Below, piece after piece: positions 8,319 through 24,097 of a stretch of DNA of 53,691 bases. The notes beneath the pieces were generated by a model. It worked only from the letters and a program-made list of their open reading frames with translations, did no database searches and was not told the DNA's origin. The stretch is from a virus (taxonomy: Duplodnaviria; Caudoviricetes): positions 1 through 53,691 of the IMG/VR virus record IMGVR_UViG_3300030430_003901; one strand, 5' to 3'. Within the stretch, counting starts at the first letter, position 1; every line of letters starts with the position of its first letter. A program made the position numbers and the translations under genes.

Positions 8319-8532
8319 TTAAAAACTTATATATTTTAGTACATTTTTCATACTCTTCCTCACCTGCAAAATAATCACTCATGTCTTTTAATAATTTTTT
8401 AGATATAGGTTTGGATGGATGGTGTATAAAAAAACCGACATTGCCTTTTATTAATTCAGAAGCATCTTTGCCGTTAAGAATAACTTCATAGGAATTTCTA
8501 AACGCCATATCTATTTCTTCATAAAACTCCAT
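8302..8532 (-). CDS. Hypothetical protein with UVR-like EEYEKC motif
   Basis: YFAGEEEYEKCTKI; start coupled to the primase stop. Confidence 0.55.
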   Translation of the reverse strand: MEFYEEIDMAFRNSYEVILNGKDASELIKGNVGFFIHHPSKPISKKLLKDMSDYFAGEEEYEKCTKIYKFLNERDN

Positions 8533-10952
8533 TACAACAAACTTGTTTGTGTATTAATTTCTTCTTTTGTTTTTAATCTTATCCATCTACCTGAATTATC
8601 TCTACCTTCTTCAGGGGCTACGCTTGTTTTATATACTGCATAAGCCACCATCCATTTATTAAATTTTATTCTTGATATTGTCAACTTTGCTTTGGGTCCA
8701 TAGTCAGGGTATTGCTCTATAAAATCAAAGTAACAGTCTTGCAGAGATACTCTTGTATCTATTTTTAATTTTTCATTCTCTGTGGTTCCGTTTATTATTC
8801 CACACCATTCAATGAAATCATGACAAGTTTCGGCTGACAACTGTCTTATCTTCAAATTTACAAATTTACTTTGAACCAATCCTTTGCTTAAAAATATCTG
8901 CAAACAATTTATCATATAATTATCAAACCTACACCATTCAGCATCATCCCAATCACCAAACATAAGTTTATTAAACTCATCTAAAGGTGAGAAGTTTTTG
9001 TTATAATGCTGATGCAATTCCAACTCCCACTTCCTTCTAACAAAAGAATTACCTGCACCTTTGATTGCATAGTTGGTGGTGATTGCTATTTTTGGTGACT
9101 TGCTGAAAGGTATTTTGATTGCGTCTTTGTTTTTCTTTTCTAATGTCAATCCTTCAGTCACAACTGAAAACAGTCTTTCAAAATCAAATGCTTTTTTTAC
9201 ATCATCAAACACGAGTATCTGAGTGTCAGCAGAAACTAATTGATAAGCAAAACTTCTTTCAAAGTAAAAAGATTTACCGTCAATAGTTACAACCTTTTTC
9301 ATTTGTGCCAAAGCATTCATAAATATTCCCTTGCCTGTCCCACCTTCAGGGTTATCGGATATAACCTCATCATTAAGAATGACAGCAGGACAATAACTTA
9401 AATTTTTATATCCATGCATAAGGAAACCTATTGTGCTTTCCATAGAAAGTTTTCTATCTTCCTGTTGTTTACATATGTTACCAATAAATTTTTTATAATC
9501 ACTACCTGAATAATCACACTTGGTGAAGTTTCTATTGATGACATGGTCTTTCCAAACATAACCACCCAAGTCTATATAGTCTAGCACATCAAGTGAATCT
9601 TTTGTTACTTTGATGGCACAGTTTTTATAATACAAGTAAGAAGTTGTTTTGGTGTCTTCAATAAAATATATGTCTATGGTAGAAAGCAATGAGAGAAACT
9701 CCTCTCTAAAAAACCTTGTGTTATCAGCAAAGTAATTGTAGATAGATGCATCGTCAAGTTCAATGAGATGATTCAAAACAAAATCTTTGATTTGTTTCTC
9801 ATCTGTGTGGTCTATCAGATTGTTTGTAACTTTTACAAAAACATAGTTCTTACTTCCTTCAGGACAAAACTTATAGAAACCATTGTCTTCTAAAAACTGC
9901 TTAAATAATATATGTACAACCTTTATAACTCCCTTGTCACTCTTTGTCCAAAACTTCTGCTCTTTATTTTCCTCATCAACCCTTTGTAATACCGAGTCAA
10001 TGACATCGCTTTCAATACTTGCGTCTTGTAGTTGAGATTTTATTTCTTTTTTAGATACCCCTCGTCTTAATTTTACTTTTATATTATTTATTCTTTCATC
10101 GTCCTCATAGTATTTGGTTCCGAAGTTTTGTGTTTGTGCGTAAGCAGAGTCTATGGTTCTATTGATTTCTCTGATGCCAAAATCTTTTGTTTGATAATTA
10201 CTCAACACATAATTAGCAAGAGACTTGTTGATACCATAATCATTAAATGCAGATGCTAAAACAAACACATTGTTATTTCTTTGACCCTCGACCATAGGAT
10301 ACTTTTTCAACCACCACTTTGTAAGTATATCAACTATTTTATTCTCATCTGTGATGGGTATAGTAGGTGCATCTCTGAGTGTATGTCGTTCTTGATATTC
10401 TTTTTCTTCAATCTTGTCCCATACACTTGAGTTTTCATTTATATATATAAGGGGGTCATAACTTTCGTAACATACACGAGATATGTTTTTACAGGTCGTA
10501 TCAAATCTTGGGTTGTCAAAATGTTTTTCTAAAGAGTTGAAATAGTTAACATGATTCTCTGCATCATTTGGTATTTTAACAATGACCTTTAGACCCTGAC
10601 CTGAAGGAGAAATAAAAGCAGAGAACACAAAGTTATTTTTAGTTAAGTTTTCTTTGTCTTGCAGTAATTCTTTTTGCTTTTCATACCCATCAAAATCTAA
10701 GCATATAAACCCTGTGTGTTCTTGAATTGCATTGTCGTTTCTTTTATTAAATATTCCTGAGAAACATATAGCAGGTAAGTTTTTTTTGAGTTCGTTTCTT
10801 TCAACTTTTCTTTTCTCTTGTCGTATTTGTTTTACCAATTCTTTGGTTGAGCCGTTTTTTATTCGTTGAAGAATGTGTCCAATAGGTCTGTGAAAAGGAG
10901 TGTCTGTTTCCTTAATGTTTTTGAATATAGTTATACTTTGTTCTAATGACAT
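8532..10952 (-). CDS. Primase-helicase: BT4734/VirE-N-like primase domain + PriCT + P-loop helicase
   Basis: KKNLPAICFSG, GFICLDFD, FISPSGQGLK, EGQRNN (PriCT), Walker A GGTGKG, Walker B LVFDD, ITTN. Confidence 0.85.
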   Translation of the reverse strand: MSLEQSITIFKNIKETDTPFHRPIGHILQRIKNGSTKELVKQIRQEKRKVERNELKKNLPAICFSGIFNKRNDNAIQEHTGFICLDFDGYEKQKELLQDKENLTKNNFVFSAFISPSGQGLKVIVKIPNDAENHVNYFNSLEKHFDNPRFDTTCKNISRVCYESYDPLIYINENSSVWDKIEEKEYQERHTLRDAPTIPITDENKIVDILTKWWLKKYPMVEGQRNNNVFVLASAFNDYGINKSLANYVLSNYQTKDFGIREINRTIDSAYAQTQNFGTKYYEDDERINNIKVKLRRGVSKKEIKSQLQDASIESDVIDSVLQRVDEENKEQKFWTKSDKGVIKVVHILFKQFLEDNGFYKFCPEGSKNYVFVKVTNNLIDHTDEKQIKDFVLNHLIELDDASIYNYFADNTRFFREEFLSLLSTIDIYFIEDTKTTSYLYYKNCAIKVTKDSLDVLDYIDLGGYVWKDHVINRNFTKCDYSGSDYKKFIGNICKQQEDRKLSMESTIGFLMHGYKNLSYCPAVILNDEVISDNPEGGTGKGIFMNALAQMKKVVTIDGKSFYFERSFAYQLVSADTQILVFDDVKKAFDFERLFSVVTEGLTLEKKNKDAIKIPFSKSPKIAITTNYAIKGAGNSFVRRKWELELHQHYNKNFSPLDEFNKLMFGDWDDAEWCRFDNYMINCLQIFLSKGLVQSKFVNLKIRQLSAETCHDFIEWCGIINGTTENEKLKIDTRVSLQDCYFDFIEQYPDYGPKAKLTISRIKFNKWMVAYAVYKTSVAPEEGRDNSGRWIRLKTKEEINTQTSLL

Positions 10953-15295: not shown

Positions 15296-15466
15296 TTAAT
15301 ACAGTTTTAATTCTGTCCACTCTATATCAAAAGTAAGTAATGACTCATGCTCATCCTCATCTCTTTCAGAGTTGTTATCTATTAACCATTTGTCAACATC
15401 ATTTGTGATGTCAACGATGTATGTGTATCCTGTGTTGTCAGTAAATCTGATAATTGCTACTTTCAT
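15296..15466 (-). CDS. Hypothetical early protein (start moved to MKVAIIRF)
   Basis: The track start at 15535 lies inside the tRNA-like element; ATG at 15466 follows an AT-rich leader. Confidence 0.6.
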   Translation of the reverse strand: MKVAIIRFTDNTGYTYIVDITNDVDKWLIDNNSERDEDEHESLLTFDIEWTELKLY

Positions 15467-15486
15467 GTCTATTAAATTAAAATTAG

Positions 15487-15603
15487 AGGGCAAGTCAGGA
15501 TTCGAACCTGCTTCTATAACTAAGGTATGTGTCAAATCAGTAGAGGTTTATGACTTCTCTACCTATACCACTCCCCTCCACCCATGTGGAGATTACTTGC
15601 CCT
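15487..15603 (-). ncRNA. tRNA-like element 1: acceptor-like stem + T-arm with about 85-nt structured insert, no anticodon arm
   Basis: AGGGCAAGT...CAGG-TTCGAAT-CCTG-ACTTGCCCT; internal hairpins CTCCAC/GTGGAG and GTAGAG/CTCTAC; D-loop-like AGTGG. Confidence 0.65.
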
Positions 15604-15607
15604 GTCT

Positions 15608-15652
15608 GATGGTTTGTTTTTGGACTATCGCATAGCCATAAGAGTAACCACC
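15608..15652 (-). other. Hairpin between stop codon and tRNA-like element 1
   Basis: GGTGGTT...GGCTAT-gcg-ATAGTC...AACCATC, directly after the TAA at 15653. Confidence 0.5.
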
Positions 15653-16213
15653 TTACGAAACCTCTTGCTCTTTCTCAACGAAGTCATACTTCTGTCTAAG
15701 ATTGCCTTCATGACAGTCGACAGGAAACCACTTCTCCAACAACCTCTTTCTCTCACCATAGAGCCATTGGGTGCCATTGTTTTTCAACATATCCCTCACA
15801 TCTTGACCAATCCAACTATAACGAAACCCCTTGGTGTGTGCCTTGTTTGTATCTTTTAAGTCATCATAGTCAGGCAACCTCTCATGAAGTAATTCAAACA
15901 TTACCTCCTCGCTGATGTCTTTATACCATCGTTGATTACCTGCCTTATCATATAGTTTACTCTCATGATAGTCTCCAACCATTATGATTTCATCACCTGC
16001 CCATGTGCCTTTGTATCGGATGAATTTACTTGTGCCTTCATGCCACTCACCCCAACCCCCACTACAAGTAGTGATTAGATGTCCAAGTGCCTGTAAGACA
16101 GACCCTCTGTCTCCATTACTTATAATTTCTCCATGCTTACAGCCACTACCAAATGTCATTGGCTCAAGTACCTGCTTCTTGGTTTTGTTTACGATTTTAA
16201 AATATTGTCCCAT
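15653..16213 (-). CDS. Conserved phage hypothetical protein (MGQY..VN..K / WAGD..VGDY type)
   Basis: Motif pattern recalled from uncharacterised phage proteins. Confidence 0.7.
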   Translation of the reverse strand: MGQYFKIVNKTKKQVLEPMTFGSGCKHGEIISNGDRGSVLQALGHLITTCSGGWGEWHEGTSKFIRYKGTWAGDEIIMVGDYHESKLYDKAGNQRWYKDISEEVMFELLHERLPDYDDLKDTNKAHTKGFRYSWIGQDVRDMLKNNGTQWLYGERKRLLEKWFPVDCHEGNLRQKYDFVEKEQEVS

Positions 16214-16214
16214 A

Positions 16215-16445
16215 TTATATTTTTTTATTAATTAATCTCAGTAAAGTTGAAATATCGCCTATGGCAAATTCCATGTCGGTATCAAGCATATCACATTGTT
16301 CAATAAGAAACATATGCACGATATCGCATTGTTTGATGAGGTGTTTCATCTCACTCTTCAAATCTTTTTTTGTATTAGTGGTATTGGATAGGGAAAGAGC
16401 ATCCTCCAATTCTGAATTAGTTATTGATATATTAATTTTACTCAT
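16215..16445 (-). CDS. Hypothetical early protein
   Basis: AAACACT-ATG leader after tRNA-like element 2. Confidence 0.65.
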   Translation of the reverse strand: MSKINISITNSELEDALSLSNTTNTKKDLKSEMKHLIKQCDIVHMFLIEQCDMLDTDMEFAIGDISTLLRLINKKI

Positions 16446-16460
16446 AGTGTTTATATTTGT

Positions 16461-16503
16461 GGAGTTGGGGGACTCGAACCCCCTGTTTTTCCATTAAGAC
16501 TCC
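16461..16503 (-). ncRNA. tRNA-like minihelix 2
   Basis: GGAGTc-TTAATGGAAAAACA-GGGGG-TTCGAGT-CCCCC-aACTCC-ACA. Confidence 0.65.
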
Positions 16504-16530
16504 TTGCTTGGCAACCCACCAAACATTCGA

Positions 16531-16562
16531 CAATAATACGACAAAAAATCGACATATGCAAG
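16531..16562 (-). promoter_or_regulatory. Early-class promoter, copy 3
   Basis: CTTG-CATATGTCGATTTTTTGTCG-TATTATTG. Confidence 0.7.
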
Positions 16563-16596
16563 TTTTTGTCCAACTATTTTTTTAGTAACTTCGTTA

Positions 16597-16821
16597 CTAT
16601 CTGTCGTTTGCAATTTCAAATTCAAAATCAGAATTGTCGTTGCACTCATGACACGGTGTGCTGTATGCCATGTCACAATAATAATCTGAATGCCATATCT
16701 CACCCTCACCACCACACACCTCACACTCATCATTATAAAAGTCTGCGTGTTCCAAACACTCAGAACATATGTCGGTCTCCCACTTTGGTGGGGCATCACA
16801 ACAGTTACTTAATTCACTCAT
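16597..16821 (-). CDS. Small Cys-rich Zn-finger protein
   Basis: SNCCDAP...ICSECLEH, DnaJ-like CEVCGGEG, PCHEC. Confidence 0.65.
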   Translation of the reverse strand: MSELSNCCDAPPKWETDICSECLEHADFYNDECEVCGGEGEIWHSDYYCDMAYSTPCHECNDNSDFEFEIANDR

Positions 16822-16964
16822 AGATATTTATATTTAGATTGTTTTGCTTTCCATTGCTTATGCCAATACGCATACTCAGAGTCCTGAGGTCGCAACACTT
16901 GGATGCGACCCCCCTCCTCCTTCTGAACACATATGACATTTGTATTTAACTTCTTAACTATCAT
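16818..16964 (-). CDS. Small hypothetical protein (start moved to MIVKKLN)
   Basis: The shorter start overlaps the upstream gene's end; ATGA coupling downstream. Confidence 0.5.
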   Translation of the reverse strand: MIVKKLNTNVICVQKEEGGRIQVLRPQDSEYAYWHKQWKAKQSKYKYL

Positions 16965-18276
16965 CGTTCTCAAGTTTTGCAAGATACTCAAATTGTGCAT
17001 CGTTCTGCTTTCCAAACAACTCGATGAAGTGTTGTTCGTTATGCTCCTCCTTCACATACTCGCTATCGAATGCACCCTTGAAAACTAAATCGCCTTGACA
17101 CGCATGAGACAGGTCATATATAATTTTACTATCATTAGGGTATTTGACAATCAAATTGCAATGACCATATCTCTTGGCAGGATATCCATTACTACCATAG
17201 GTTGTTGATGACTTGTCAGAAGTATAGACCTTACAGTTTGGGAACTTCTCTTGTAGTTTTCTTTTACTCTCAAGCAAGAAAACTTCTCGCCTTTGTTCTG
17301 CCTGTACCTTTTGGGTTTCTGTCTTAACCCACGCCCTATGGTCTAACATATATGTAGTGAAGTTGACAGTTCTCCTTGTTTCACTCCATCGATTAGTCAT
17401 TTTATAGTTCACAACCTTCCTGTCATATCCACTCCTTTTAGTAACCAAATTTCCTGTCAAAAGACTGACTGACTTGTCCTCATCGTATCGAGAACCTTTG
17501 ATGCTATAGTACAGTTTGGCTTCTCCCTTCTGCTTATATAATAAACCTCGGTTAGCGTCCCTGAAATTAAAGGTTACCTCCAACAGTTTACCCACAGTAT
17601 AACCATAACCTGATACTCCAAAAGATAAAGTTATCGAGTGTGTGTCTCTATCGTTAGACCAAACATCGTCCTCGAAGGTTATCTCATTGCCAATTACACC
17701 ATTGTACTCATCAGTATACCAATCCTTTCGTCTCTCAACGATTGGTTTCTCTTTATACTGCTGAATAAAACTTTTAATTTTGAGGTATTCGTCATAGTCC
17801 TCCCACGCACTATACATACGCATAGCGAGTTGGTCGCATAGATGATACTTAATCATTGAAATAAGTGCGATGTCAGGGACTAACTCACCTTTGATTCTTT
17901 TGAACTCGTGTAAGGTGTTACGCCATTTACTGACCTCTCCAACCTTATATATATACTCCCCTTCATTGTCAGAGTTTTTATACATCTTTGATATCAAGTC
18001 CTCATGCTTGAGTAAATCCATCCAAAAATCATTATGCTCTTGTTTGACAACAGCCCCTTGATATTCAGTTACAACCTTTGGTTGAGGTAGTGTCTTGTCA
18101 CTACTATAATGCTTGGCACTATCGTAGTCAGGGTTCGCCAAGAAGTCCTGTGTCGTGATTGTCGCACTCTCTATATAGGTGTCAAAGTTCTCGAATATTT
18201 CATTCACAAGAGCAACCTTGTGGATTGGATTCCTGAGTCTGCTTTCAGACATTTTCTGTTTTAGTGTTTTTTCCAT
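16954..18276 (-). CDS. Hypothetical protein, about 440 aa (start moved to MEKTLKQ)
   Basis: The track start at 18339 is the ATG inside the hammerhead CTGATGA core; ATG at 18276 follows an A-rich leader. Confidence 0.75.
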   Translation of the reverse strand: MEKTLKQKMSESRLRNPIHKVALVNEIFENFDTYIESATITTQDFLANPDYDSAKHYSSDKTLPQPKVVTEYQGAVVKQEHNDFWMDLLKHEDLISKMYKNSDNEGEYIYKVGEVSKWRNTLHEFKRIKGELVPDIALISMIKYHLCDQLAMRMYSAWEDYDEYLKIKSFIQQYKEKPIVERRKDWYTDEYNGVIGNEITFEDDVWSNDRDTHSITLSFGVSGYGYTVGKLLEVTFNFRDANRGLLYKQKGEAKLYYSIKGSRYDEDKSVSLLTGNLVTKRSGYDRKVVNYKMTNRWSETRRTVNFTTYMLDHRAWVKTETQKVQAEQRREVFLLESKRKLQEKFPNCKVYTSDKSSTTYGSNGYPAKRYGHCNLIVKYPNDSKIIYDLSHACQGDLVFKGAFDSEYVKEEHNEQHFIELFGKQNDAQFEYLAKLENDDS

Positions 18277-18291
18277 AATATAATTTTTTTT

Positions 18292-18348
18292 ATACCTAAG
18301 AACCCGAAGGTTCTTTCGTGCCATTTCAGGACTACTCATCAGAGGTAT
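18292..18348 (-). ncRNA. Hammerhead ribozyme 1 (type I)
   Basis: ATACCT-CTGATGA-GTAGTCCTGAAATGGCAC-GAAA-GAACC-TTCG-GGTTC-TT/AGGTAT. Stems I and III perfect, stem II imperfect. CUU triplet, predicted cut between 18298 and 18297. Confidence 0.8.
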
Positions 18349-18738
18349 TTAACACATCGCATTGAAGTGTCTTTCGATATCAGTAGCGATTATCTTTATC
18401 TCATTGAAGGAGTGTCGATAATCAGAACTCTCTACCTCATCTCTGACTTCAACTTTCATTCTCCTTGGCAACTCGTTATATATATCTATACCCTTCTCGT
18501 ATTTCTGTAGGGCTTCCCACACATACTTCTCACGACCATGCTTGAGGTAGTGCGTGTTAATCAATCTCGCACCTTCATATATATAATTAAGTGCGTGGTC
18601 TTTCTTGGTCTCATACGAGTTCTGTATGAGGTCTGAAGTAGATTTCCAAATCTTATTCAAGATTTCTTTCTGCTCCTTGTTGACACCTTGTGTCTCGAGA
18701 GCAATCAACTGTGTTTGTATTTCGAGTATTGGGTTCAT
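18349..18738 (-). CDS. Hypothetical early protein
   Basis: First gene after promoter copy 4; its stop directly abuts hammerhead 1. Confidence 0.7.
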   Translation of the reverse strand: MNPILEIQTQLIALETQGVNKEQKEILNKIWKSTSDLIQNSYETKKDHALNYIYEGARLINTHYLKHGREKYVWEALQKYEKGIDIYNELPRRMKVEVRDEVESSDYRHSFNEIKIIATDIERHFNAMC

Positions 18739-18757
18739 AGTGCTTTGAAAATTTCGA

Positions 18758-18789
18758 CAAACATACGAAAAGATTTCGACATATGCAAA
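18758..18789 (-). promoter_or_regulatory. Early-class promoter, copy 4
   Basis: TTTG-CATATGTCGAAATCTTTTCG-TATGTTTG. Confidence 0.8.
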
Positions 18790-18813
18790 TCTTTTTTTTG
18801 TCTGTCAGGTTAG

Positions 18814-18856
18814 GTTCAGGGAAGGGAATCGAACCCTTCTGCGTCCAACCCTGAAC
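18814..18856 (-). ncRNA. tRNA-like minihelix 3
   Basis: GTTCAGGG-TTGGACGCAG-AAGGG-TTCGATT-CCCTT-CCCTGAAC, a 13-bp coaxial stack. Confidence 0.7.
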
Positions 18857-18875
18857 TACAGGCATATATATATAA

Positions 18876-19334
18876 CTAAAAATCACCCTCTGCTACCTGA
18901 AAGCAGGGTATCCCATTCCTTCTCCACATCTTGACAACTTTATTCCTGTCATCAAAGACAGCAATTACTCTGTTCCTGTCAATGATTTGTGGGTCGTTCA
19001 ACCATGACTCCTTCAGTTCATCATCAGGCATCATGAGTTTGTCTAAAGGTCTCATAATCAGTGCCTTCCAAGGAACCTTATGCTCCTTCAACCACTTGAC
19101 AGTAGCGTCTTGTGTTGCTATACTTCTGCCACTAAATATATATATATCGTGGTTGAAATTGTCGAGTTCTCTCGCTGTCTTTATGACTGCGTGATTAGGT
19201 TTGTCCATGTCGATGTTCTTGGGGTCAAAAAATTTGTTCCAATCAATCTTACCTTCAGGAGTGCTTGAGTAATCTCTCCTGTCTTGGATGTCAGCGAGTG
19301 TGCCATCCAAATCAAAAATGTAAATGTCTCTCAT
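18876..19334 (-). CDS. Stand-alone HAD phosphatase, T4 PseT/PNK 3'-phosphatase-like domain
   Basis: IFDLDGTLAD, FSGR, LIMRP, FDDRNKVVKMWRRNGIPCFQVAEGDF; no kinase P-loop. Confidence 0.85.
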   Translation of the reverse strand: MRDIYIFDLDGTLADIQDRRDYSSTPEGKIDWNKFFDPKNIDMDKPNHAVIKTARELDNFNHDIYIFSGRSIATQDATVKWLKEHKVPWKALIMRPLDKLMMPDDELKESWLNDPQIIDRNRVIAVFDDRNKVVKMWRRNGIPCFQVAEGDF

Positions 19335-19343
19335 ATCTGTAAA

Positions 19344-19535
19344 TTAAGTTAAGTTATTTATTATTCTGTTCAACTTCCCACTCTCAACCTGATAAGTCAA
19401 ATCATCAACCATACCAAGTTCTCTATCTCGTTCTAACCGAGCGAGTTCGTCTTGGTAGATTTCCAATAGGTCTTTTTCTGCCATTGCTTTTCTGTTCCAA
19501 GCGTCTGCTTTTATTTGCCACTTTGTTTTTCTCAT
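19344..19535 (-). CDS. Hypothetical early protein
   Basis: (AT)n leader after tRNA-like element 4. Confidence 0.6.
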   Translation of the reverse strand: MRKTKWQIKADAWNRKAMAEKDLLEIYQDELARLERDRELGMVDDLTYQVESGKLNRIINNLT

Positions 19536-19555
19536 ATATATAAATTAAAATTAGT

Positions 19556-19596
19556 TTCAGGGGGTGGAATCGAACCACCCTGCAACCATTCCTGAA
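19556..19596 (-). ncRNA. tRNA-like minihelix 4
   Basis: TTCAGG-AATGGTTGCA-GGGTGG-TTCGATT-CCACCC-CCTGAA, a 12-bp stack. Confidence 0.7.
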
Positions 19597-19597
19597 T

Positions 19598-19644
19598 GAA
19601 GGACAATCACACCCCTCATAAATGAGGGGGGTGTGATTTCCTTC
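19598..19644 (-). other. Strong hairpin between stop codon and minihelix 4
   Basis: GAAGGAAATCACACCCCCCTCAT-TT-ATGAGGGGTGTGATTGTCCTTC; no U-tract. Confidence 0.7.
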
Positions 19645-19649
19645 GCTGA

Positions 19650-20066
19650 TTATACATTTAACCTTCTCTCCTTGATAGCGTCACAGAGTATCTCTCTGTA
19701 CTCTTGGCTACCTCTCCTGATAGCACCCAAAACATCGCCCTCCAAGACCGAGGTCATGAACGAACCTTCACCTTTTTTCATGGTGAACTTCATATCTATT
19801 TCACCATTGTCAGTCAGGTAGTATGCACACCTCGAACCGATATAACTGTCTGACTCATAATTCAAGTTTGATAACCCATCCATATCATTTATATTTTTAC
19901 ACAGGGCTGTAGTTAGAACCACTAACATTTGGTATCCTTCCCAATTAACCAAGTATTCGTAACTCTTGTAATGACCTGTTGGATGCACACCATCTGCTAA
20001 AGGTCTGCTTAGACACTTCGGTACGAAGTACTCGTTGATTTCGATTTTATTTGATTGTTTTTCCAT
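19650..20066 (-). CDS. Hypothetical early protein
   Basis: (AT)n leader directly after hammerhead 2. Confidence 0.7.
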   Translation of the reverse strand: MEKQSNKIEINEYFVPKCLSRPLADGVHPTGHYKSYEYLVNWEGYQMLVVLTTALCKNINDMDGLSNLNYESDSYIGSRCAYYLTDNGEIDMKFTMKKGEGSFMTSVLEGDVLGAIRRGSQEYREILCDAIKERRLNV

Positions 20067-20164: not shown

Positions 20165-21121
20165 TTACTTCCCCTCGAGAACATAGTCGACTGCTCTCGC
20201 TGACTTTGTCAGAGCCGATACAACTGCTTTCGAGTCCTCCATCTTAACCCTCTTGACCCATCCATTGATGTATGCTTGAGAGTTGGTTTCATCGTCACCA
20301 CAGTCAGTACAGATACCTGAGAGACCTGATAACATCATCGCACCACTCTCAGCAATCAGTTCCTCAAAAGCATATCTGTCAGCACCAAAGAAGGTGAAAT
20401 CAACTATGCCCTCTCTCTTGAGTCTGCTCTCATGACCTGTTGAGTGAATCATCTCATGGAACAGCGTCTTGTAGTAGTTATCTATTTTCTTGAACTGCTT
20501 CTTTTCAGGCATCACTATTTTGTCCTCTGTTGGACTGTAGTACGCTCTGTTTTGGTTGACATCCTTGATGGTCAACTTCTTGTTCGCCTTCTTGTAATCT
20601 CTGATTACCTTTTCAGCACTCTCGATTGGAGTAATCTCAACTTCCTCTGTTGGAACTCTTTTTGGTTTGATGTCGCCCTCTATCTGAGATATATTATATA
20701 CTCTGAAGTAGAACATCGAGAAATTTGTGTATACATCACTCTCCTCACATTTTTCCTTCCTGATACACTCATCAAGTTTTGTGTACCACTTACCTGAACC
20801 TTTAGGTTTGAATACGCAGTAGGAAATTTTCCAATTGTACACCTCAGAGTATTTCGTCATCTCATCTGTTTTTACTCTGTAACCTGCTTTCACGATTGAG
20901 TTCAGAGTAGCCCATTCGTTGACTGTGTACTCTCTCGCCCTCATCACATGGTTGAGGAAAAACTGATTGATACCTCTGTACTCTCTACCTGAGAAGTGGT
21001 TGATGGGGTGATTGTCCCCTGATTTCCATGGTCGGAACCATTGTAGACCTTCCTTCTGAAGACCTTCGAGAAGTGCCTGTTTGACCTTCTCTGTTACATC
21101 GAATTTAGATTTTTTTGTCAT
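20165..21121 (-). CDS. ardC: ArdC-like antirestriction ssDNA-binding protein with zincin-like C-terminal domain
   Basis: WFRPW, N..SGREYRGIN, RAYYSP..D.I.MP, TLFHEMIHSTGH..RL.R, YAFEELIAE. Confidence 0.88.
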   Translation of the reverse strand: MTKKSKFDVTEKVKQALLEGLQKEGLQWFRPWKSGDNHPINHFSGREYRGINQFFLNHVMRAREYTVNEWATLNSIVKAGYRVKTDEMTKYSEVYNWKISYCVFKPKGSGKWYTKLDECIRKEKCEESDVYTNFSMFYFRVYNISQIEGDIKPKRVPTEEVEITPIESAEKVIRDYKKANKKLTIKDVNQNRAYYSPTEDKIVMPEKKQFKKIDNYYKTLFHEMIHSTGHESRLKREGIVDFTFFGADRYAFEELIAESGAMMLSGLSGICTDCGDDETNSQAYINGWVKRVKMEDSKAVVSALTKSARAVDYVLEGK

Positions 21122-22495: not shown

Positions 22496-24097
22496 ATGAA
22501 TCCAAAAGAACTACACTTCGATAGTGATGGACGAAATAAACTGCTTAGTGGAATTACGAAAATAGCGAAAGCAGTTAAGTCTACTTTAGGTCCACAAGGA
22601 AACACAGTCTTAATAGAATCACAAGAACATACAGGAGGAATTACTGTGACGAAAGATGGAGTAACAGTTGCTAAATCAATAAACCTGTTGGACTCAGTTG
22701 AGAATCTTGCAGTAAGAATAATGAAAGAAGCCGCAGATAAAACCGCAACCTCAGCCGGTGATGGAACTACAACTGCTATAGTATTAACTGAATCTTTAGT
22801 TGCTCATGGTCTACAACACTTTAATGACCAAGTCACAAATAGAACTGAAGTATTAAAATTATTGCAGAGTGAATGTGATAATATAATTAAAAGACTAAAG
22901 AAGGATTCAAAAAAAATAACAGGCAAGAAACTAAAAGATGTTGCGGTCATCTCAGCAAACAATGACGATAAGATTGGTAATTTAATTTACAAGGTTTATA
23001 GTGAGGTTGGTAAAGATGGTATAGTAACGGTTGAGAAATCAAAGAACCATGAAACTTATTATGAAACCACACAGGGAATGAAAATAGATAGAGGATATAG
23101 TTCACCTTTATTTATAAACAATCAAAAACATGATGAGTGTATTTATGAAGACATAAAAGTTTTAGTAGCCGATGCAGAGATATCAAACATACTACAAATT
23201 GAAAATGCACTAAAGCCACTAATAAATAAAAAAGAAAAACTATTAATCATTGCACCATGCACAACTCAGTTTACAAATACTCTTGCTGCGAATGTAATGA
23301 AGAATGGTCTAAAGCTTGTAAGCATAGCACCTCCTGAGTTTGGTTACAGACAACATGAACTTATGCAAGATATTGCTTTGTCAGTTGGTGCAACATATTT
23401 TAGCGAGAAGACAGGTGACGATTTAAGTCTCATCCGCTATGACGACTTGGGTCATTGTGCCAAGGTGATAGTTGGTCGTGATTCTACAGTCGTCATAAAA
23501 GATGAGCATGATAAAAAATCTTCTGAGATAAAAGATAGAGTAGATGAACTTTGGGTTGCATATGAAAACTCAAAAAGAAAAGAAGATAAATCATTTATAC
23601 AAAAAAGAATAGCTTCACTAACCGGAGGTATAGGTGTTATGTTTGTGGGAGGCAACACAGACTTAGAACAGAAAGAACTATACGATAGAGTGGACGATGC
23701 AGTTTGTGCTGTGAAGTCAGCTTTGGAAGAGGGTATACTTCCGGGTGGTGGACTTAGCTTATATCATTTAGGGAATGAATATGAAGTAGCAACTATAGAT
23801 GAAGAAAATTTAGAAAAAAAAATTGCTTACGCAATTTTAGCAAAAGCTCTACAATCTCCCTTAGAACAAATACTTTCCAACGCAGGATATGATAATGTTT
23901 ATCTTGGAAAGAAAACAGAAAAGAACGAAGGGTTCGATGTTAAGAATGAGAGATGGGGAAATATGTATGACATGGGAATCATTGACCCTATGAAAGTAAC
24001 AAGGTCAGCTTTGCAAAACGCAATAAGCGTTGCTGTAACTTTACTTTCAACCAACGCAATAGTAACTATTAAAAGAAAACAAGATGCCAATATTTAA
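22496..24097 (+). CDS. groEL: Phage-encoded chaperonin GroEL
   Basis: AVKSTLGPQG, VTKDGVTVAK, AGDGTTTA, RVDDAVCA, EEGILPGGG, GIIDPMKV; lacks the GGM tail. Confidence 0.97.
   Translation: MNPKELHFDSDGRNKLLSGITKIAKAVKSTLGPQGNTVLIESQEHTGGITVTKDGVTVAKSINLLDSVENLAVRIMKEAADKTATSAGDGTTTAIVLTESLVAHGLQHFNDQVTNRTEVLKLLQSECDNIIKRLKKDSKKITGKKLKDVAVISANNDDKIGNLIYKVYSEVGKDGIVTVEKSKNHETYYETTQGMKIDRGYSSPLFINNQKHDECIYEDIKVLVADAEISNILQIENALKPLINKKEKLLIIAPCTTQFTNTLAANVMKNGLKLVSIAPPEFGYRQHELMQDIALSVGATYFSEKTGDDLSLIRYDDLGHCAKVIVGRDSTVVIKDEHDKKSSEIKDRVDELWVAYENSKRKEDKSFIQKRIASLTGGIGVMFVGGNTDLEQKELYDRVDDAVCAVKSALEEGILPGGGLSLYHLGNEYEVATIDEENLEKKIAYAILAKALQSPLEQILSNAGYDNVYLGKKTEKNEGFDVKNERWGNMYDMGIIDPMKVTRSALQNAISVAVTLLSTNAIVTIKRKQDANI

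What the first reader, a model, noticed from the sequence alone, without database searches (positions are those of the whole stretch)
15487..15603. 117-nt tRNA-like RNA with tmRNA/Y-RNA-like topology
Seen: same 13-bp acceptor/T-arm frame as the minihelices, but the linker is expanded. It reads hairpin CTCCAC-ATGG-GTGGAG, then GAGTGG, then a domain closed by TATAG/TTATA containing a GTAGAG/CTCTAC hairpin, then GAAG before the T-arm (compare GCAG in elements 3 and 4). The insert sits where elements 3 and 4 have 2 nt after TGG. Inference: the minihelix is a scaffold that can carry a cargo domain, which may be a novel sRNA.
Basis: partly seen in the sequence, partly recalled or inferred. Interest (0 to 1): 0.72.

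Follow-up and report, generated by a model that had tools for sequence, protein, structure and literature searches.

The report
Phage tRNA-shaped RNA with expandable arm
A marine phage carries a gene for a small RNA that folds like a transfer RNA but has an enlarged lower arm unsuited to ordinary codon reading; related phages keep the same fold, so it is a working RNA whose job is still unknown.

Summary
The element is real. It lies on the minus strand (15487-15603), between two minus-strand ORFs of a 53.7-kb marine phage record.

It belongs to a conserved, phage-only RNA family. I found 37 occurrences, giving 24 distinct sequences, of which 22 are full length.

Covariation supports four helices (95.5% of cells paired; 14 of 20 pairs show compensatory changes; 0 of 500 shuffles reach this):
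- an 8-bp acceptor stem, with a possible 9th pair;
- a compact D-hairpin with a UGG loop;
- an inner stem, GUGGU/GACAC;
- a 4-bp T stem with an invariant UUCGAAU loop.

The inner stem is capped in one of two ways. Either it ends in a hypervariable 9-18-nt loop, or it carries a distal hairpin. In 11 of 14 distal hairpins the loop displays UCAUA, which resembles a Met/Ile anticodon loop.

ARAGORN and Rfam do not call it a tRNA, tRNA-Sec or tmRNA; the best match is tRNA-Sec at 24-26 bits against a cutoff of 47. The closest known kind is the irregular allo-tRNA / tRNA-Sec-like RNAs.

The best reading is a non-decoding tRNA mimic, cut from the early operon transcript by tRNA-processing enzymes. A decoy role is inferred, not shown. 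I class it as a new variant of a known kind.

The parts
15487..15603 (-). Whole tRNA-like RNA, including the possible 9th acceptor pair A15603:U15487. The core called by the covariance models is 15488-15602 (115 nt).
   Evidence: R1 153 bits and R2 87.6 bits. Rfam tRNA-Sec 24.3 bits over 15488-15602, below the cutoff of 47. The 9th pair is pairable in 19 of 19 relatives whose flanks could be read: A:U in most, G:C in L216 and L244, G:U in L235.
15595..15602 (-). Acceptor stem, 5' strand (GGGCAAGU).
   Evidence: 8 pairs, 100% paired in 22 sequences; 7 of the 8 show compensatory changes.
15488..15495 (-). Acceptor stem, 3' strand (ACUUGCCC).
   Evidence: The 8th pair U8:G/A is pairable in 19 of 19, whereas a 5th T-stem pair is possible in only 4 of 19.
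15576..15591 (-). D-arm-like hairpin CUCCAC-AUGG-GUGGAG: a 6-bp stem with a 4-nt loop carrying GG.
   Evidence: In relatives the stem is 3-4 bp and covaries (ACC/GGU, GAC/GUC, AGC/GCU, CGC/GCG). Its 3 aligned pairs are 100% paired and 2 of them are compensatory. This is the arm that aligns to the tRNA-Sec D-arm.
15567..15571 (-). Inner stem (anticodon-arm position), 5' strand GUGGU.
   Evidence: RNAalifold predicts GUG/CAC. Three pairs show compensating variants: U:A to G:U in L245, G:C to A:U in L124, and G.A to G:C (L124, L245) or U:A (L246).
15529..15533 (-). Inner stem, 3' strand GACAC, preceded by the conserved AUUU.
15539..15563 (-). Distal hairpin GGUAGAG / 11-nt loop / CUCUACU. The loop is 15546-15556 and holds UCAUA at 15549-15553. 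This is the optional 'cargo'.
   Evidence: A hairpin is present in 14 of 22 relatives, with unrelated stem sequences. UCAUA lies in the predicted loop in 11 of those 14.
15511..15528 (-). Variable region AUACCUUAGUUAUAGAAG. It holds the conserved AC(G/C)UUAG and has no hairpin in this member.
15496..15510 (-). T arm CAGG-UUCGAAU-CCUG.
   Evidence: 4 pairs, 100% paired, 2 compensatory (CAGG, GAGG, GGGG, GCGG, AAGG). The loop is invariant in 22 of 22.
15467..15486 (-). Trailer CUAAUUUUAAUUUAAUAGAC, running up to the ATG (15466) of the next ORF. The N-C-N-A-A trailer is shared by the family and the minihelices.
15604..15652 (-). 49-nt leader between the stop of the upstream ORF and the RNA. Its last bases, ACA, recur in many relatives.
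   Evidence: No sigma-70-like promoter lies here; the nearest on this strand is at 16241-16214.
15653..16213 (-). Upstream ORF, 186 aa, with no family assigned.
   Evidence: Two relatives at 41-50% identity have no RNA downstream.
15296..15466 (-). Downstream ORF, 56 aa from the ATG at 15466. The longer TTG-started ORF (15296-15535) would overlap the RNA.
   Evidence: Downstream genes differ between family subgroups while the RNA is kept.

Best explanation
This is a gene for a conserved, phage-specific, tRNA-shaped non-coding RNA.

Shown here:
- Four helices sit in cloverleaf order: a long acceptor stem of 8 bp (perhaps 9), a short T stem of 4 bp, a compact D-hairpin with a GG loop, and a canonical T loop.
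- The junction sequences are conserved.
- The anticodon-side arm ends in a hypervariable loop or an added hairpin, not in a fixed 7-nt anticodon loop.

Inferred:
- The RNA is transcribed with its neighbours as part of the early minus-strand operon.
- Host tRNA enzymes excise it: RNase P at G1, then 3' trimming and CCA addition. They would recognise its acceptor/T helix and elbow.
- It does not decode. It works as a tRNA mimic that occupies a factor which recognises the upper half of tRNAs.
- The lower arm is an exchangeable display site. In this member it shows a Met/Ile-type U-CAU-A loop on a stalk about twice the normal length.
- My preferred target class is a tRNA-directed host defence nuclease or tRNA-handling enzyme, which would make this a decoy. 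That last step is speculation.
For: Real and selected:
- 37 occurrences on 14 IMG/VR and 23 metagenome contigs, giving 24 distinct sequences.
- On 22 full-length sequences, 95.5% of cells pair and 14 of 20 pairs show double changes. The covariation score is 0.551 against 0.196 for shuffles (0 of 500 reach it). Slid controls give 0.07-0.14.
- RNAalifold finds the same helices on its own.

tRNA-like:
- The T loop UUCGAAU is invariant and the D loop carries GG.
- The best Rfam match is tRNA-Sec, through the acceptor, D and T arms.

Non-decoding:
- ARAGORN calls none of them.
- The cap of the inner stem is 9, 9 and 12 nt with different sequences in the near-identical L216, L235 and L244. It is 9-18 nt in 8 members, and in 14 others it is replaced by hairpins with loops of 5-11 nt.
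- In this member the CAU loop has 11 nt and sits about 12 layers from the junction.

Independent gene:
- The flanking gene families differ between subgroups while the RNA is kept.

Co-transcription:
- It has the same strand as its neighbours. The next start codon lies 15-25 nt downstream in 10 of 21 loci, counting the 56-aa ORF that my filter dropped in the window, L225 and L228.
- No sigma-70-like promoter lies in the leader.
- Metatranscriptome contigs of four runs cover the element plus its leader.

Phage-only:
- The pattern scan found 0 matches in one genome each of about 185,000 prokaryote species.

Plausibility of upper-half decoys:
Against: - No experiment or read-level data show a discrete processed RNA, a CCA end or any partner. 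The RNA evidence is contigs only and may include DNA carry-over.
- The strongly conserved junction sequences are not explained by a generic upper-half decoy.
- Acceptor-stem sequences vary freely, so no identity element is evident.
- No tRNA-related enzyme gene is consistently nearby. The only one found is a HAD_PNKP phosphatase-domain ORF 3.3 kb upstream.
- The adjacent 400-460-aa protein family has no recognisable fold or family.
- Only 5 of 81 primase-related loci hold the RNA within the 10 kb searched on either side, so it is dispensable for most relatives.
Confidence: 0.45

Rival explanations
1. mRNA punctuation. The tRNA-like element, together with the three minihelices a few kb upstream, serves mainly as an RNase P / 3'-end processing site. 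It would cut the early polycistronic transcript between ORFs and set mRNA ends and stability. The excised RNA would be a by-product.
For: - All four elements lie in intergenic gaps on the coding strand of one operon-like block.
- The next start codon lies 15-25 nt after the RNA in about half of the loci.
- Minihelices with covarying acceptors and the same CUAA trailer recur in relatives (11 hits in 81 sources).
- One RNA contig stops exactly at the last acceptor base, 15488, and another stops 4 nt inside the 5' end. This is a weak hint.
Against: - A processing signal needs only the acceptor/T half. Here the junction sequences (GGAGUGGU, UUUGACAC, ACGUUAG), the D-hairpin and the UCAUA loop are conserved while the acceptor sequence drifts.
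- Contigs cannot show RNA ends reliably.
Confidence: 0.2
2. A decoding tRNA of irregular shape: an allo-tRNA-like tRNA with a CAU anticodon that reads AUG or AUA on the ribosome.
For: - 11 of 14 distal loops hold U-CAU-A. L126 has an exact 7-nt AUCAUAA loop.
- The L246 loop resembles that of a genuine phage tRNA-Met in L124.
- 8/4 tRNAs are known to be active and occur in phages (PMC5389517, passages read).
Against: - The loop holding CAU is 11 nt in this member and 6-10 nt in most of the other loops that hold it (CAU or, in L243, ACAUAA).
- It sits on the inner stem, an internal loop and a second stem, about 6 layers too long for standard tRNA geometry (inference).
- 8 of 22 members lack the hairpin altogether, and 3 of 14 lack the motif.
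- ARAGORN and Rfam reject all of them.
- A 13-bp acceptor/T helix would disfavour EF-Tu (recalled, not tested).
Confidence: 0.1
3. RNA subunit or specific ligand of a phage protein, for example the uncharacterised 400-460-aa protein often encoded next to it. The tRNA shape would be only a scaffold.
For: - The protein family of window 16954-18339 is directly adjacent to the RNA in 7 loci (L124, L125, L126, L127, L222, L236, L243). It lies 2-3 genes away in the window and L225.
- Conserved single-stranded junction sequences suit sequence-specific protein binding.
Against: - The protein is absent within 4 kb in the other 12 of 21 loci.
- Those nine loci are close relatives, so adjacency may be simple synteny.
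- The protein has no detectable family or fold.
Confidence: 0.15
4. A decaying tRNA pseudogene, or a chance fold or coding sequence with no RNA function.
For: Standard tRNA finders fail. The TTG-started ORF 15296-15535 overlaps the 3' part.
Against: - Compensatory changes occur in 14 of 20 pairs, and the cloverleaf is kept over 22 distinct sequences whose acceptor stems differ at almost every position.
- The overlapping ORF is not conserved: downstream genes differ between subgroups.
- The ATG at 15466 gives a non-overlapping ORF.
Confidence: 0.03

Closest known systems
allo-tRNAs and irregular allo-tRNA-like RNAs (Mukai et al. 2017, PMC5389517; review PMC7609411)
   Same: - A longer acceptor stem with a shorter T stem: the 8/4 model fits 19 of 19, against 4 of 19 for 7/5.
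- A D-arm with a long stem and a tetraloop, as in tRNA-Sec. This holds for this member.
- A relation to type II/Ser-like tRNAs. Genuine tRNA-Ser(GCU) genes matched my first pattern through GAGUGGU and UUUGCUACA.
- Presence in phages.
- The papers also mention inactive, possibly regulatory allo-tRNA-like forms and five-stem junctions (passages read).
   Different: - Allo-tRNAs have a normal 7-nt anticodon loop and a long variable arm, and several were shown to translate.
- Here the anticodon-side arm ends in a hypervariable loop or a stalked extra hairpin.
- Most members have no variable-arm hairpin (14 of 19).
- A 9th acceptor pair may make the helix 13 bp rather than 12.
- The family is confined to marine phage contigs.
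- I could not see the supplementary figures on phage 8/4 tRNAs and irregular polycistrons.
tRNA-Sec (Rfam RF01852)
   Same: It is the best Rfam match (24.3-25.8 bits). The acceptor, the 6-bp/4-nt D-arm and the T arm all align. A 13-bp acceptor/T helix in a 9/4 split is possible.
   Different: - The score is far below the gathering score of 47.
- There is no UCA anticodon in a 7-nt loop, and no long variable arm in this member.
- The 9/4 split is the archaeal/eukaryal form (recalled), whereas the host is probably a flavobacterium.
tRNA-like domain of tmRNA, and bacterial Y-RNA-like YrlA
   Same: A tRNA upper half (acceptor plus T arm, with GG for the elbow) joined to a non-tRNA lower part.
   Different: - There is no tag reading frame or pseudoknots, and the length is 88-133 nt.
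- ARAGORN's tmRNA mode finds nothing.
- Rfam tmRNA matches only 17-nt T arms of two minihelices.
- In YrlA the RNA ends lie in the Ro-binding stem, not the acceptor stem (recalled). No such family matched.
Phage-encoded tRNAs that counter tRNA-targeting defences (for example the T5 tRNA against PARIS, PMC11464382)
   Same: They are phage-borne, tRNA-shaped and encoded in an early region near other anti-defence-like genes. Here an ArdC-like ORF lies at 20165-21121.
   Different: Those are functional replacement tRNAs. This RNA probably cannot decode, and a decoy role is only inferred. Of that paper I saw the search listing only.
tRNA-like processing signals (mitochondrial tRNA punctuation, MALAT1 mascRNA) and the small stable RNAs in the T4 tRNA cluster (all recalled)
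   Same: tRNA-like folds embedded in longer transcripts and excised by RNase P and 3'-end processing.
   Different: No homology was tested. Nothing of the kind has been described for flavobacterial phages in the library I searched.

Membership tests
canonical tRNA (Rfam RF00005 / ARAGORN) | Called by tRNA finders or reaches the Rfam gathering score | tested here: not met
   ARAGORN finds 0 genes in the window and none at the family members in 80 related loci. There is no RF00005 match at the element even at E <= 10.
canonical tRNA (Rfam RF00005 / ARAGORN) | 5-bp anticodon stem with a 7-nt loop and a conserved anticodon | tested here: not met
   The inner stem is capped by 9-18 nt of variable sequence or by an extra hairpin. 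In this member the distal loop is 11 nt.
canonical tRNA (Rfam RF00005 / ARAGORN) | T loop UUCRANY and D-loop GG for the elbow | tested here: met
   UUCGAAU is invariant and the D-hairpin loop carries GG in 22 of 22 sequences.
tRNA-Sec (RF01852) | Reaches the gathering score of 47 bits | tested here: not met
   24.3 bits for the window; 25.8 for L216 and 24.6 for L236.
tRNA-Sec (RF01852) | UCA anticodon in a 7-nt loop, and a long variable arm | tested here: not met
   The loop reads AAGUCAUAAAC. UCA occurs only out of register: G would take the place of U33 and U the place of purine 37. The variable region has no hairpin.
tRNA-Sec (RF01852) | 13-bp acceptor/T helix, and a 6-bp D stem with a 4-nt loop | tested here: inconclusive
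   The D arm meets this in the window member only; relatives have 3-4 bp. The 9th acceptor pair is pairable in 19 of 19 but rests on one lineage switching from A:U to G:C or G:U.
allo-tRNA (8/4 or 9/3) | 12-bp acceptor branch split 8/4 or 9/3 | tested here: met
   8 acceptor pairs and 4 T pairs are 100% paired. The 8/4 model fits 19 of 19 and the 7/5 model 4 of 19. A 9th pair would make it 9/4.
allo-tRNA (8/4 or 9/3) | Functional anticodon arm and long variable arm; Ser identity; active in translation | tested here: not met
   There is no standard anticodon arm. A variable-arm hairpin is present in only 5 of 19 members and not in the window member. Aminoacylation cannot be tested with these tools.
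tmRNA | tRNA-like domain plus a tag ORF and pseudoknots; called by ARAGORN or Rfam RF00023 | tested here: not met
   ARAGORN finds no tmRNA. RF00023 matches only 17 nt at two other elements, at 12-14 bits against a cutoff of 47.
YrlA / Y-RNA-like, skipping-rope and other curated tRNA-like motifs | Match to the curated Rfam model | tested here: not met
   No such family appears among the 8 matches at E <= 10 over 15300-19800, and none at gathering score over the window.
minihelix elements of this phage group | Acceptor stem joined to the T arm by a 10-12-nt linker (AAUGGUUGCAG type), 12-13 bp in all, with a CUAA trailer | tested here: inconclusive
   The frame and trailer are shared. However, neither covariance model of the 115-nt family scores the minihelices, and the linker is replaced by three helices.

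The most novel reading that the evidence does not exclude
Flavobacterial phages of the ocean may carry a modular RNA anti-defence. It would be a tRNA-shaped decoy with two properties:
- Its 13-bp acceptor/T helix keeps it out of translation.
- Its exchangeable lower arm displays baits, here a Met/Ile-type anticodon loop on a stalk, for host tRNA-cleaving immune nucleases or tRNA enzymes.

The bare minihelices in the same operon would be the minimal version of the same device. Processing of these elements would at the same time punctuate the early transcript.
Probability: 0.2. Interest if true: 0.85.

Novelty: new variant of a known kind. Interest (0 to 1): 0.6.

Why it matters
Phage tRNAs have recently been recognised as counter-measures to tRNA-cleaving immunity.

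A conserved phage RNA that keeps the tRNA upper half and core, but has given up a normal anticodon arm, would extend that theme. The move would be from replacement tRNAs to tRNA mimics or decoys, or to tRNA-guided transcript processing in phages.

It also gives a natural example of a tRNA scaffold that tolerates inserts at two defined sites. That is of interest for tRNA engineering.

The family is abundant enough in marine metagenomes to be studied comparatively: 37 occurrences here, and DNA holders in several studies. It has 22 sequences with clear covariation, which is enough to seed a curated RNA family.

Tried and rejected
Searches for relatives that found nothing:
- An exact 24-nt scan of IMG/VR found nothing.
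My filter found no homologue.
- Relatives of the upstream 186-aa ORF (2 loci) have no RNA.
- The 461-aa ORF gave no relatives by the search for related loci.
- blastn against GenBank phages found nothing, both for 2.5 kb and for the element alone.
- The closest GenBank relative by primase is MW202828.1 (72%). It has no member in the 11.7 kb upstream of its primase; the best match is 11.7 bits.
- The prokaryote genome scan gave 0 matches.

Function and target tests:
- A possible GUU(A)/(U)AAC variable-region stem is seen in about half of the members by eye. It is invariant where present and absent in the window, so it was not adopted.
- Antisense targets of the conserved single strands within the window were only 10-11-mers, about what chance gives.

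The adjacent protein family:
- It has no Pfam, PHROG or NCBIfam family, no PDB profile match and no usable Atlas hit.

RNA evidence:
- The RNA runs are contigs only. Parts without cover mean nothing.
- The single contigs ending at 15488 and 15598 are a weak hint at most.

Other:
- Literature searches for a prior description found none.
- Supplements of PMC5389517, which show phage 8/4 tRNAs and irregular polycistrons, could not be read and may contain similar RNAs.

Full report
**1. What is in the sequence**

The window is an IMG/VR virus record of 53,691 bases with about 35% G+C. The finding lies in a block of tightly packed minus-strand ORFs.

Read on the minus strand, 15487-15603 gives an RNA with these parts:
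- an 8-bp acceptor stem, GGGCAAGU/ACUUGCCC, which A15603:U15487 can extend to 9 bp;
- a hairpin CUCCAC-AUGG-GUGGAG;
- GGGAGUGGU;
- a 7-bp hairpin GGUAGAG/CUCUACU with the 11-nt loop AAGUCAUAAAC;
- GAUUUGACACAUACCUUAGUUAUAGAAG;
- a T arm CAGG-UUCGAAU-CCUG abutting the acceptor 3' strand.

The minimum-energy fold is -40.7 kcal/mol, against -31.3 +/- 3.8 for shuffles (z -2.49).

ARAGORN finds no tRNA or tmRNA in the window. Rfam finds nothing at gathering score. At E <= 10 the element's only match is tRNA-Sec, at 24.3 bits against a cutoff of 47. That match aligns through the acceptor, D and T arms, with the middle 58 nt unaligned.

**2. Relatives**

Direct approaches failed:
- an exact scan;
- relatives of the two neighbouring ORFs;
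- blastn against GenBank phages.

The primase (8532-10952, minus strand) has 133 relatives in IMG/VR. The 80 best were fetched with up to 10 kb of flank on each side. They come from phages of about 60 kb. By tblastn their nearest cultured kin are Flavobacterium, Polaribacter and Cellulophaga phages.

The family was then built up in steps:
- A single-sequence covariance model found homologues in L127, L125 and L126.
- My frame scan added L124.
- A second model (R2) scored those five at 88-111 bits and nothing else comparably in 83 sources.
- Gapped patterns built from conserved motifs then found members in IMG/VR.
- One metagenome scan gave 23 stretches, and all 23 are R2 matches of 56-111 bits.
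- The same pattern has no match in one genome each of about 185,000 prokaryote species.

Altogether there are 37 occurrences and 24 distinct sequences. Of these, 22 are full length, at 88-133 nt.

**3. Structure from comparison**

On the model-based alignment of the 22 sequences:
- The acceptor stem (8 pairs) is paired in every cell. Seven pairs show compensatory changes.
- The D-hairpin's three aligned pairs and the four T-stem pairs are also 100% paired, each with two compensatory pairs.
- The whole structure scores 0.551 for covariation, against 0.196 for shuffles (0 of 500 reach it) and 0.07-0.14 for slid controls.

RNAalifold predicts the same helices without my input.

The inner stem GUGGU/GACAC is nearly invariant, but the few variants compensate:
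- L124 has GUAGU/GCUAC;
- L245 has GGGGU/GCCUC;
- L246 turns the usual G.A into U:A.

The 8th acceptor pair (U:G or U:A) fits 19 of 19 sequences, while a fifth T-stem pair fits only 4 of 19. The flanks allow a 9th pair in 19 of 19, with A:U replaced by G:C or G:U in one lineage. The frame is therefore 8/4, possibly 9/4.

It pairs in 63.7% of cells, which is no better than the controls.

**4. What varies**

The cap of the inner stem is the variable site:
- Eight members have 9-18 nt of U/A-rich sequence there. It differs even among the near-identical L216, L235 and L244.
- Fourteen members carry a hairpin, or two in L246, with unrelated stem sequences.
- In 11 of those 14 the predicted loop contains UCAUA. 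It is a clean 7-nt AUCAUAA in L126. In L246 it resembles the anticodon loop of a genuine tRNA-Met found by ARAGORN in L124.

A second optional hairpin, CAUC...GAUG, sits in the variable region of five members.

The junction strands are the most conserved sequence outside the T loop: GGA(A)GUGGU, UUUGACAC and AC(G/C)UUAG.

So 'scaffold plus insert' describes the variation well. But the scaffold is a four-helix tRNA-like core, not a bare minihelix.

**5. Context**

- The flanking gene families differ between subgroups while the RNA is retained. That argues for an independent gene. It argues against a leader of one particular ORF and against coding sequence.
- The TTG-started ORF 15296-15535 overlaps the RNA but is not conserved. 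The ATG at 15466 gives a non-overlapping 56-aa ORF.
- The RNA is on the coding strand. There is no sigma-70-like promoter in its 49-nt leader (Bacteroidota promoters are not covered by that scan). The next start codon is 21 nt downstream here, and 15-25 nt in about half of the loci.
- An uncharacterised 400-460-aa protein is next to the RNA in seven loci and nearby in two more. It has no recognisable family or solved relative.
- The only RNA-repair-like gene is a PNKP-type HAD phosphatase at 18876-19334.
- Contigs from four metatranscriptome runs cover the element and its leader. One ends exactly at 15488. These are contigs, so they show presence in RNA libraries at best.

**6. Interpretation**

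Shown: a selected, phage-specific, tRNA-shaped RNA with an irregular anticodon side.

Inferred from established tRNA biology (recalled):
- An acceptor/T helix with a proper T loop, and a GG loop for the elbow, is what RNase P, 3'-end nucleases and the CCA-adding enzyme recognise. Excision from the operon transcript is therefore likely.
- The hypervariable or stalked lower arm cannot place an anticodon at the standard distance, so ordinary decoding is unlikely.
- A helix of 13 bp would also disfavour EF-Tu.

I therefore favour a non-decoding tRNA mimic (0.45). A decoy for a tRNA-directed nuclease or enzyme is the most attractive specific role. Upper-half recognition by an immune nuclease is documented for Cas12a3 (PMC12851939, passages read). 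Bacterial Schlafen cleaves, among others, tRNA-Met(CAU) (PMC13056530, passages read).

Rivals:
- pure transcript punctuation, 0.2;
- an RNA partner of a phage protein, 0.15;
- an irregular decoding tRNA(CAU), 0.1;
- a pseudogene or artefact, 0.03.

**7. Comparison with known kinds**

The nearest described kind is the allo-tRNA / tRNA-Sec-like group (PMC5389517 and PMC7609411, passages read). It shares:
- the 8/4 or 9/3 branches;
- a tRNA-Sec-like D arm;
- occurrence in phages;
- some inactive, possibly regulatory forms with extra stems.

This family meets the 8/4 criterion but fails the anticodon-arm and variable-arm criteria. It also fails every curated model. tmRNA and Y-RNA-like readings are not supported.

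I found no description of such RNAs in flavobacterial or marine phages. The supplements of the allo-tRNA paper, which I could not open, might show similar sequences.

**Verdict**

- The 'cargo on a tRNA-like scaffold' idea is partly right.
- The tmRNA/Y-RNA topology is wrong.
- This is a new variant of a known kind. Interest is moderate to high, because the family is well defined and its function is open.

Noticed in passing
window 19556-19596 (-), 18814-18856 (-), 16461-16503 (-); also L124:998-1040 and 1385-1425, L125:3056-3096, L126:1854-1894, L132:2401-2445, L145:1624-1667, L191:2659-2703: A family of 41-45-nt minihelices: a 5-8-bp acceptor-like stem (6-7 bp by the scan), a 10-12-nt linker (AAUGGUUGCAG type, containing GG), a 5-6-bp T stem and a UUCGAUU loop. 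The acceptor sequences covary between relatives, and the trailer is CUAA, as in the 115-nt family. All lie in intergenic gaps on the coding strand.
   Followed up: partly
L182:18948-19062, L158:5696-5804, L146:7256-7362, L148:1017-1085, L145:9295-9369, L169:8319-8420, L160:6270-6357: A second irregular tRNA-like family in related phages. It has a nearly fixed acceptor and T arm (AGUCAGG ... ACAGGUUCGAxUCCUGUCCUGACU, 7/5, followed by A) and a hypervariable middle, at 69-115 nt overall. L158 has a tRNA-Leu-like D arm. L182 and L148 again show a UCAU loop. None is called by ARAGORN.
   Followed up: partly
L214:2156-2227 (-): A Pistol ribozyme (RF02679) at 59.1 bits, above the gathering score of 34.5, lies 1.1 kb from a family member in a related phage contig.
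   Followed up: no
window 16954-18339 (-): A 461-aa protein with no Pfam, PHROG or NCBIfam family, no PDB profile match and a poor Atlas model (pLDDT 0.36). Its relatives (17-48% identity) sit directly beside the RNA in seven related loci.
   Followed up: partly
window 18876-19334 (-): A stand-alone PNKP-type HAD phosphatase domain (PF25109, E 1e-30). It lies between two minihelices, and no kinase or ligase domain was detected nearby.
   Followed up: no
window 20165-21121 (-) and 22496-24097 (+): An ArdC-N plus zincin metallopeptidase (anti-restriction-like) ORF, and a phage-encoded GroEL-type chaperonin at the strand switch.
   Followed up: no
L124:2361-2435, L146:7427-7501; L153, L159, L162, L163, L171, L174, L176 near position 550-875: Genuine tRNA genes in relatives: Met-CAU in two loci and Arg-UCU in seven. 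The window itself has none.
   Followed up: no
L126:3361-3488 and L222:1122-1251: In these two members the variable-arm hairpin is enlarged. In L126 it contains a second copy of an AAUCAUAG-like motif, which suggests an internal duplication.
   Followed up: no
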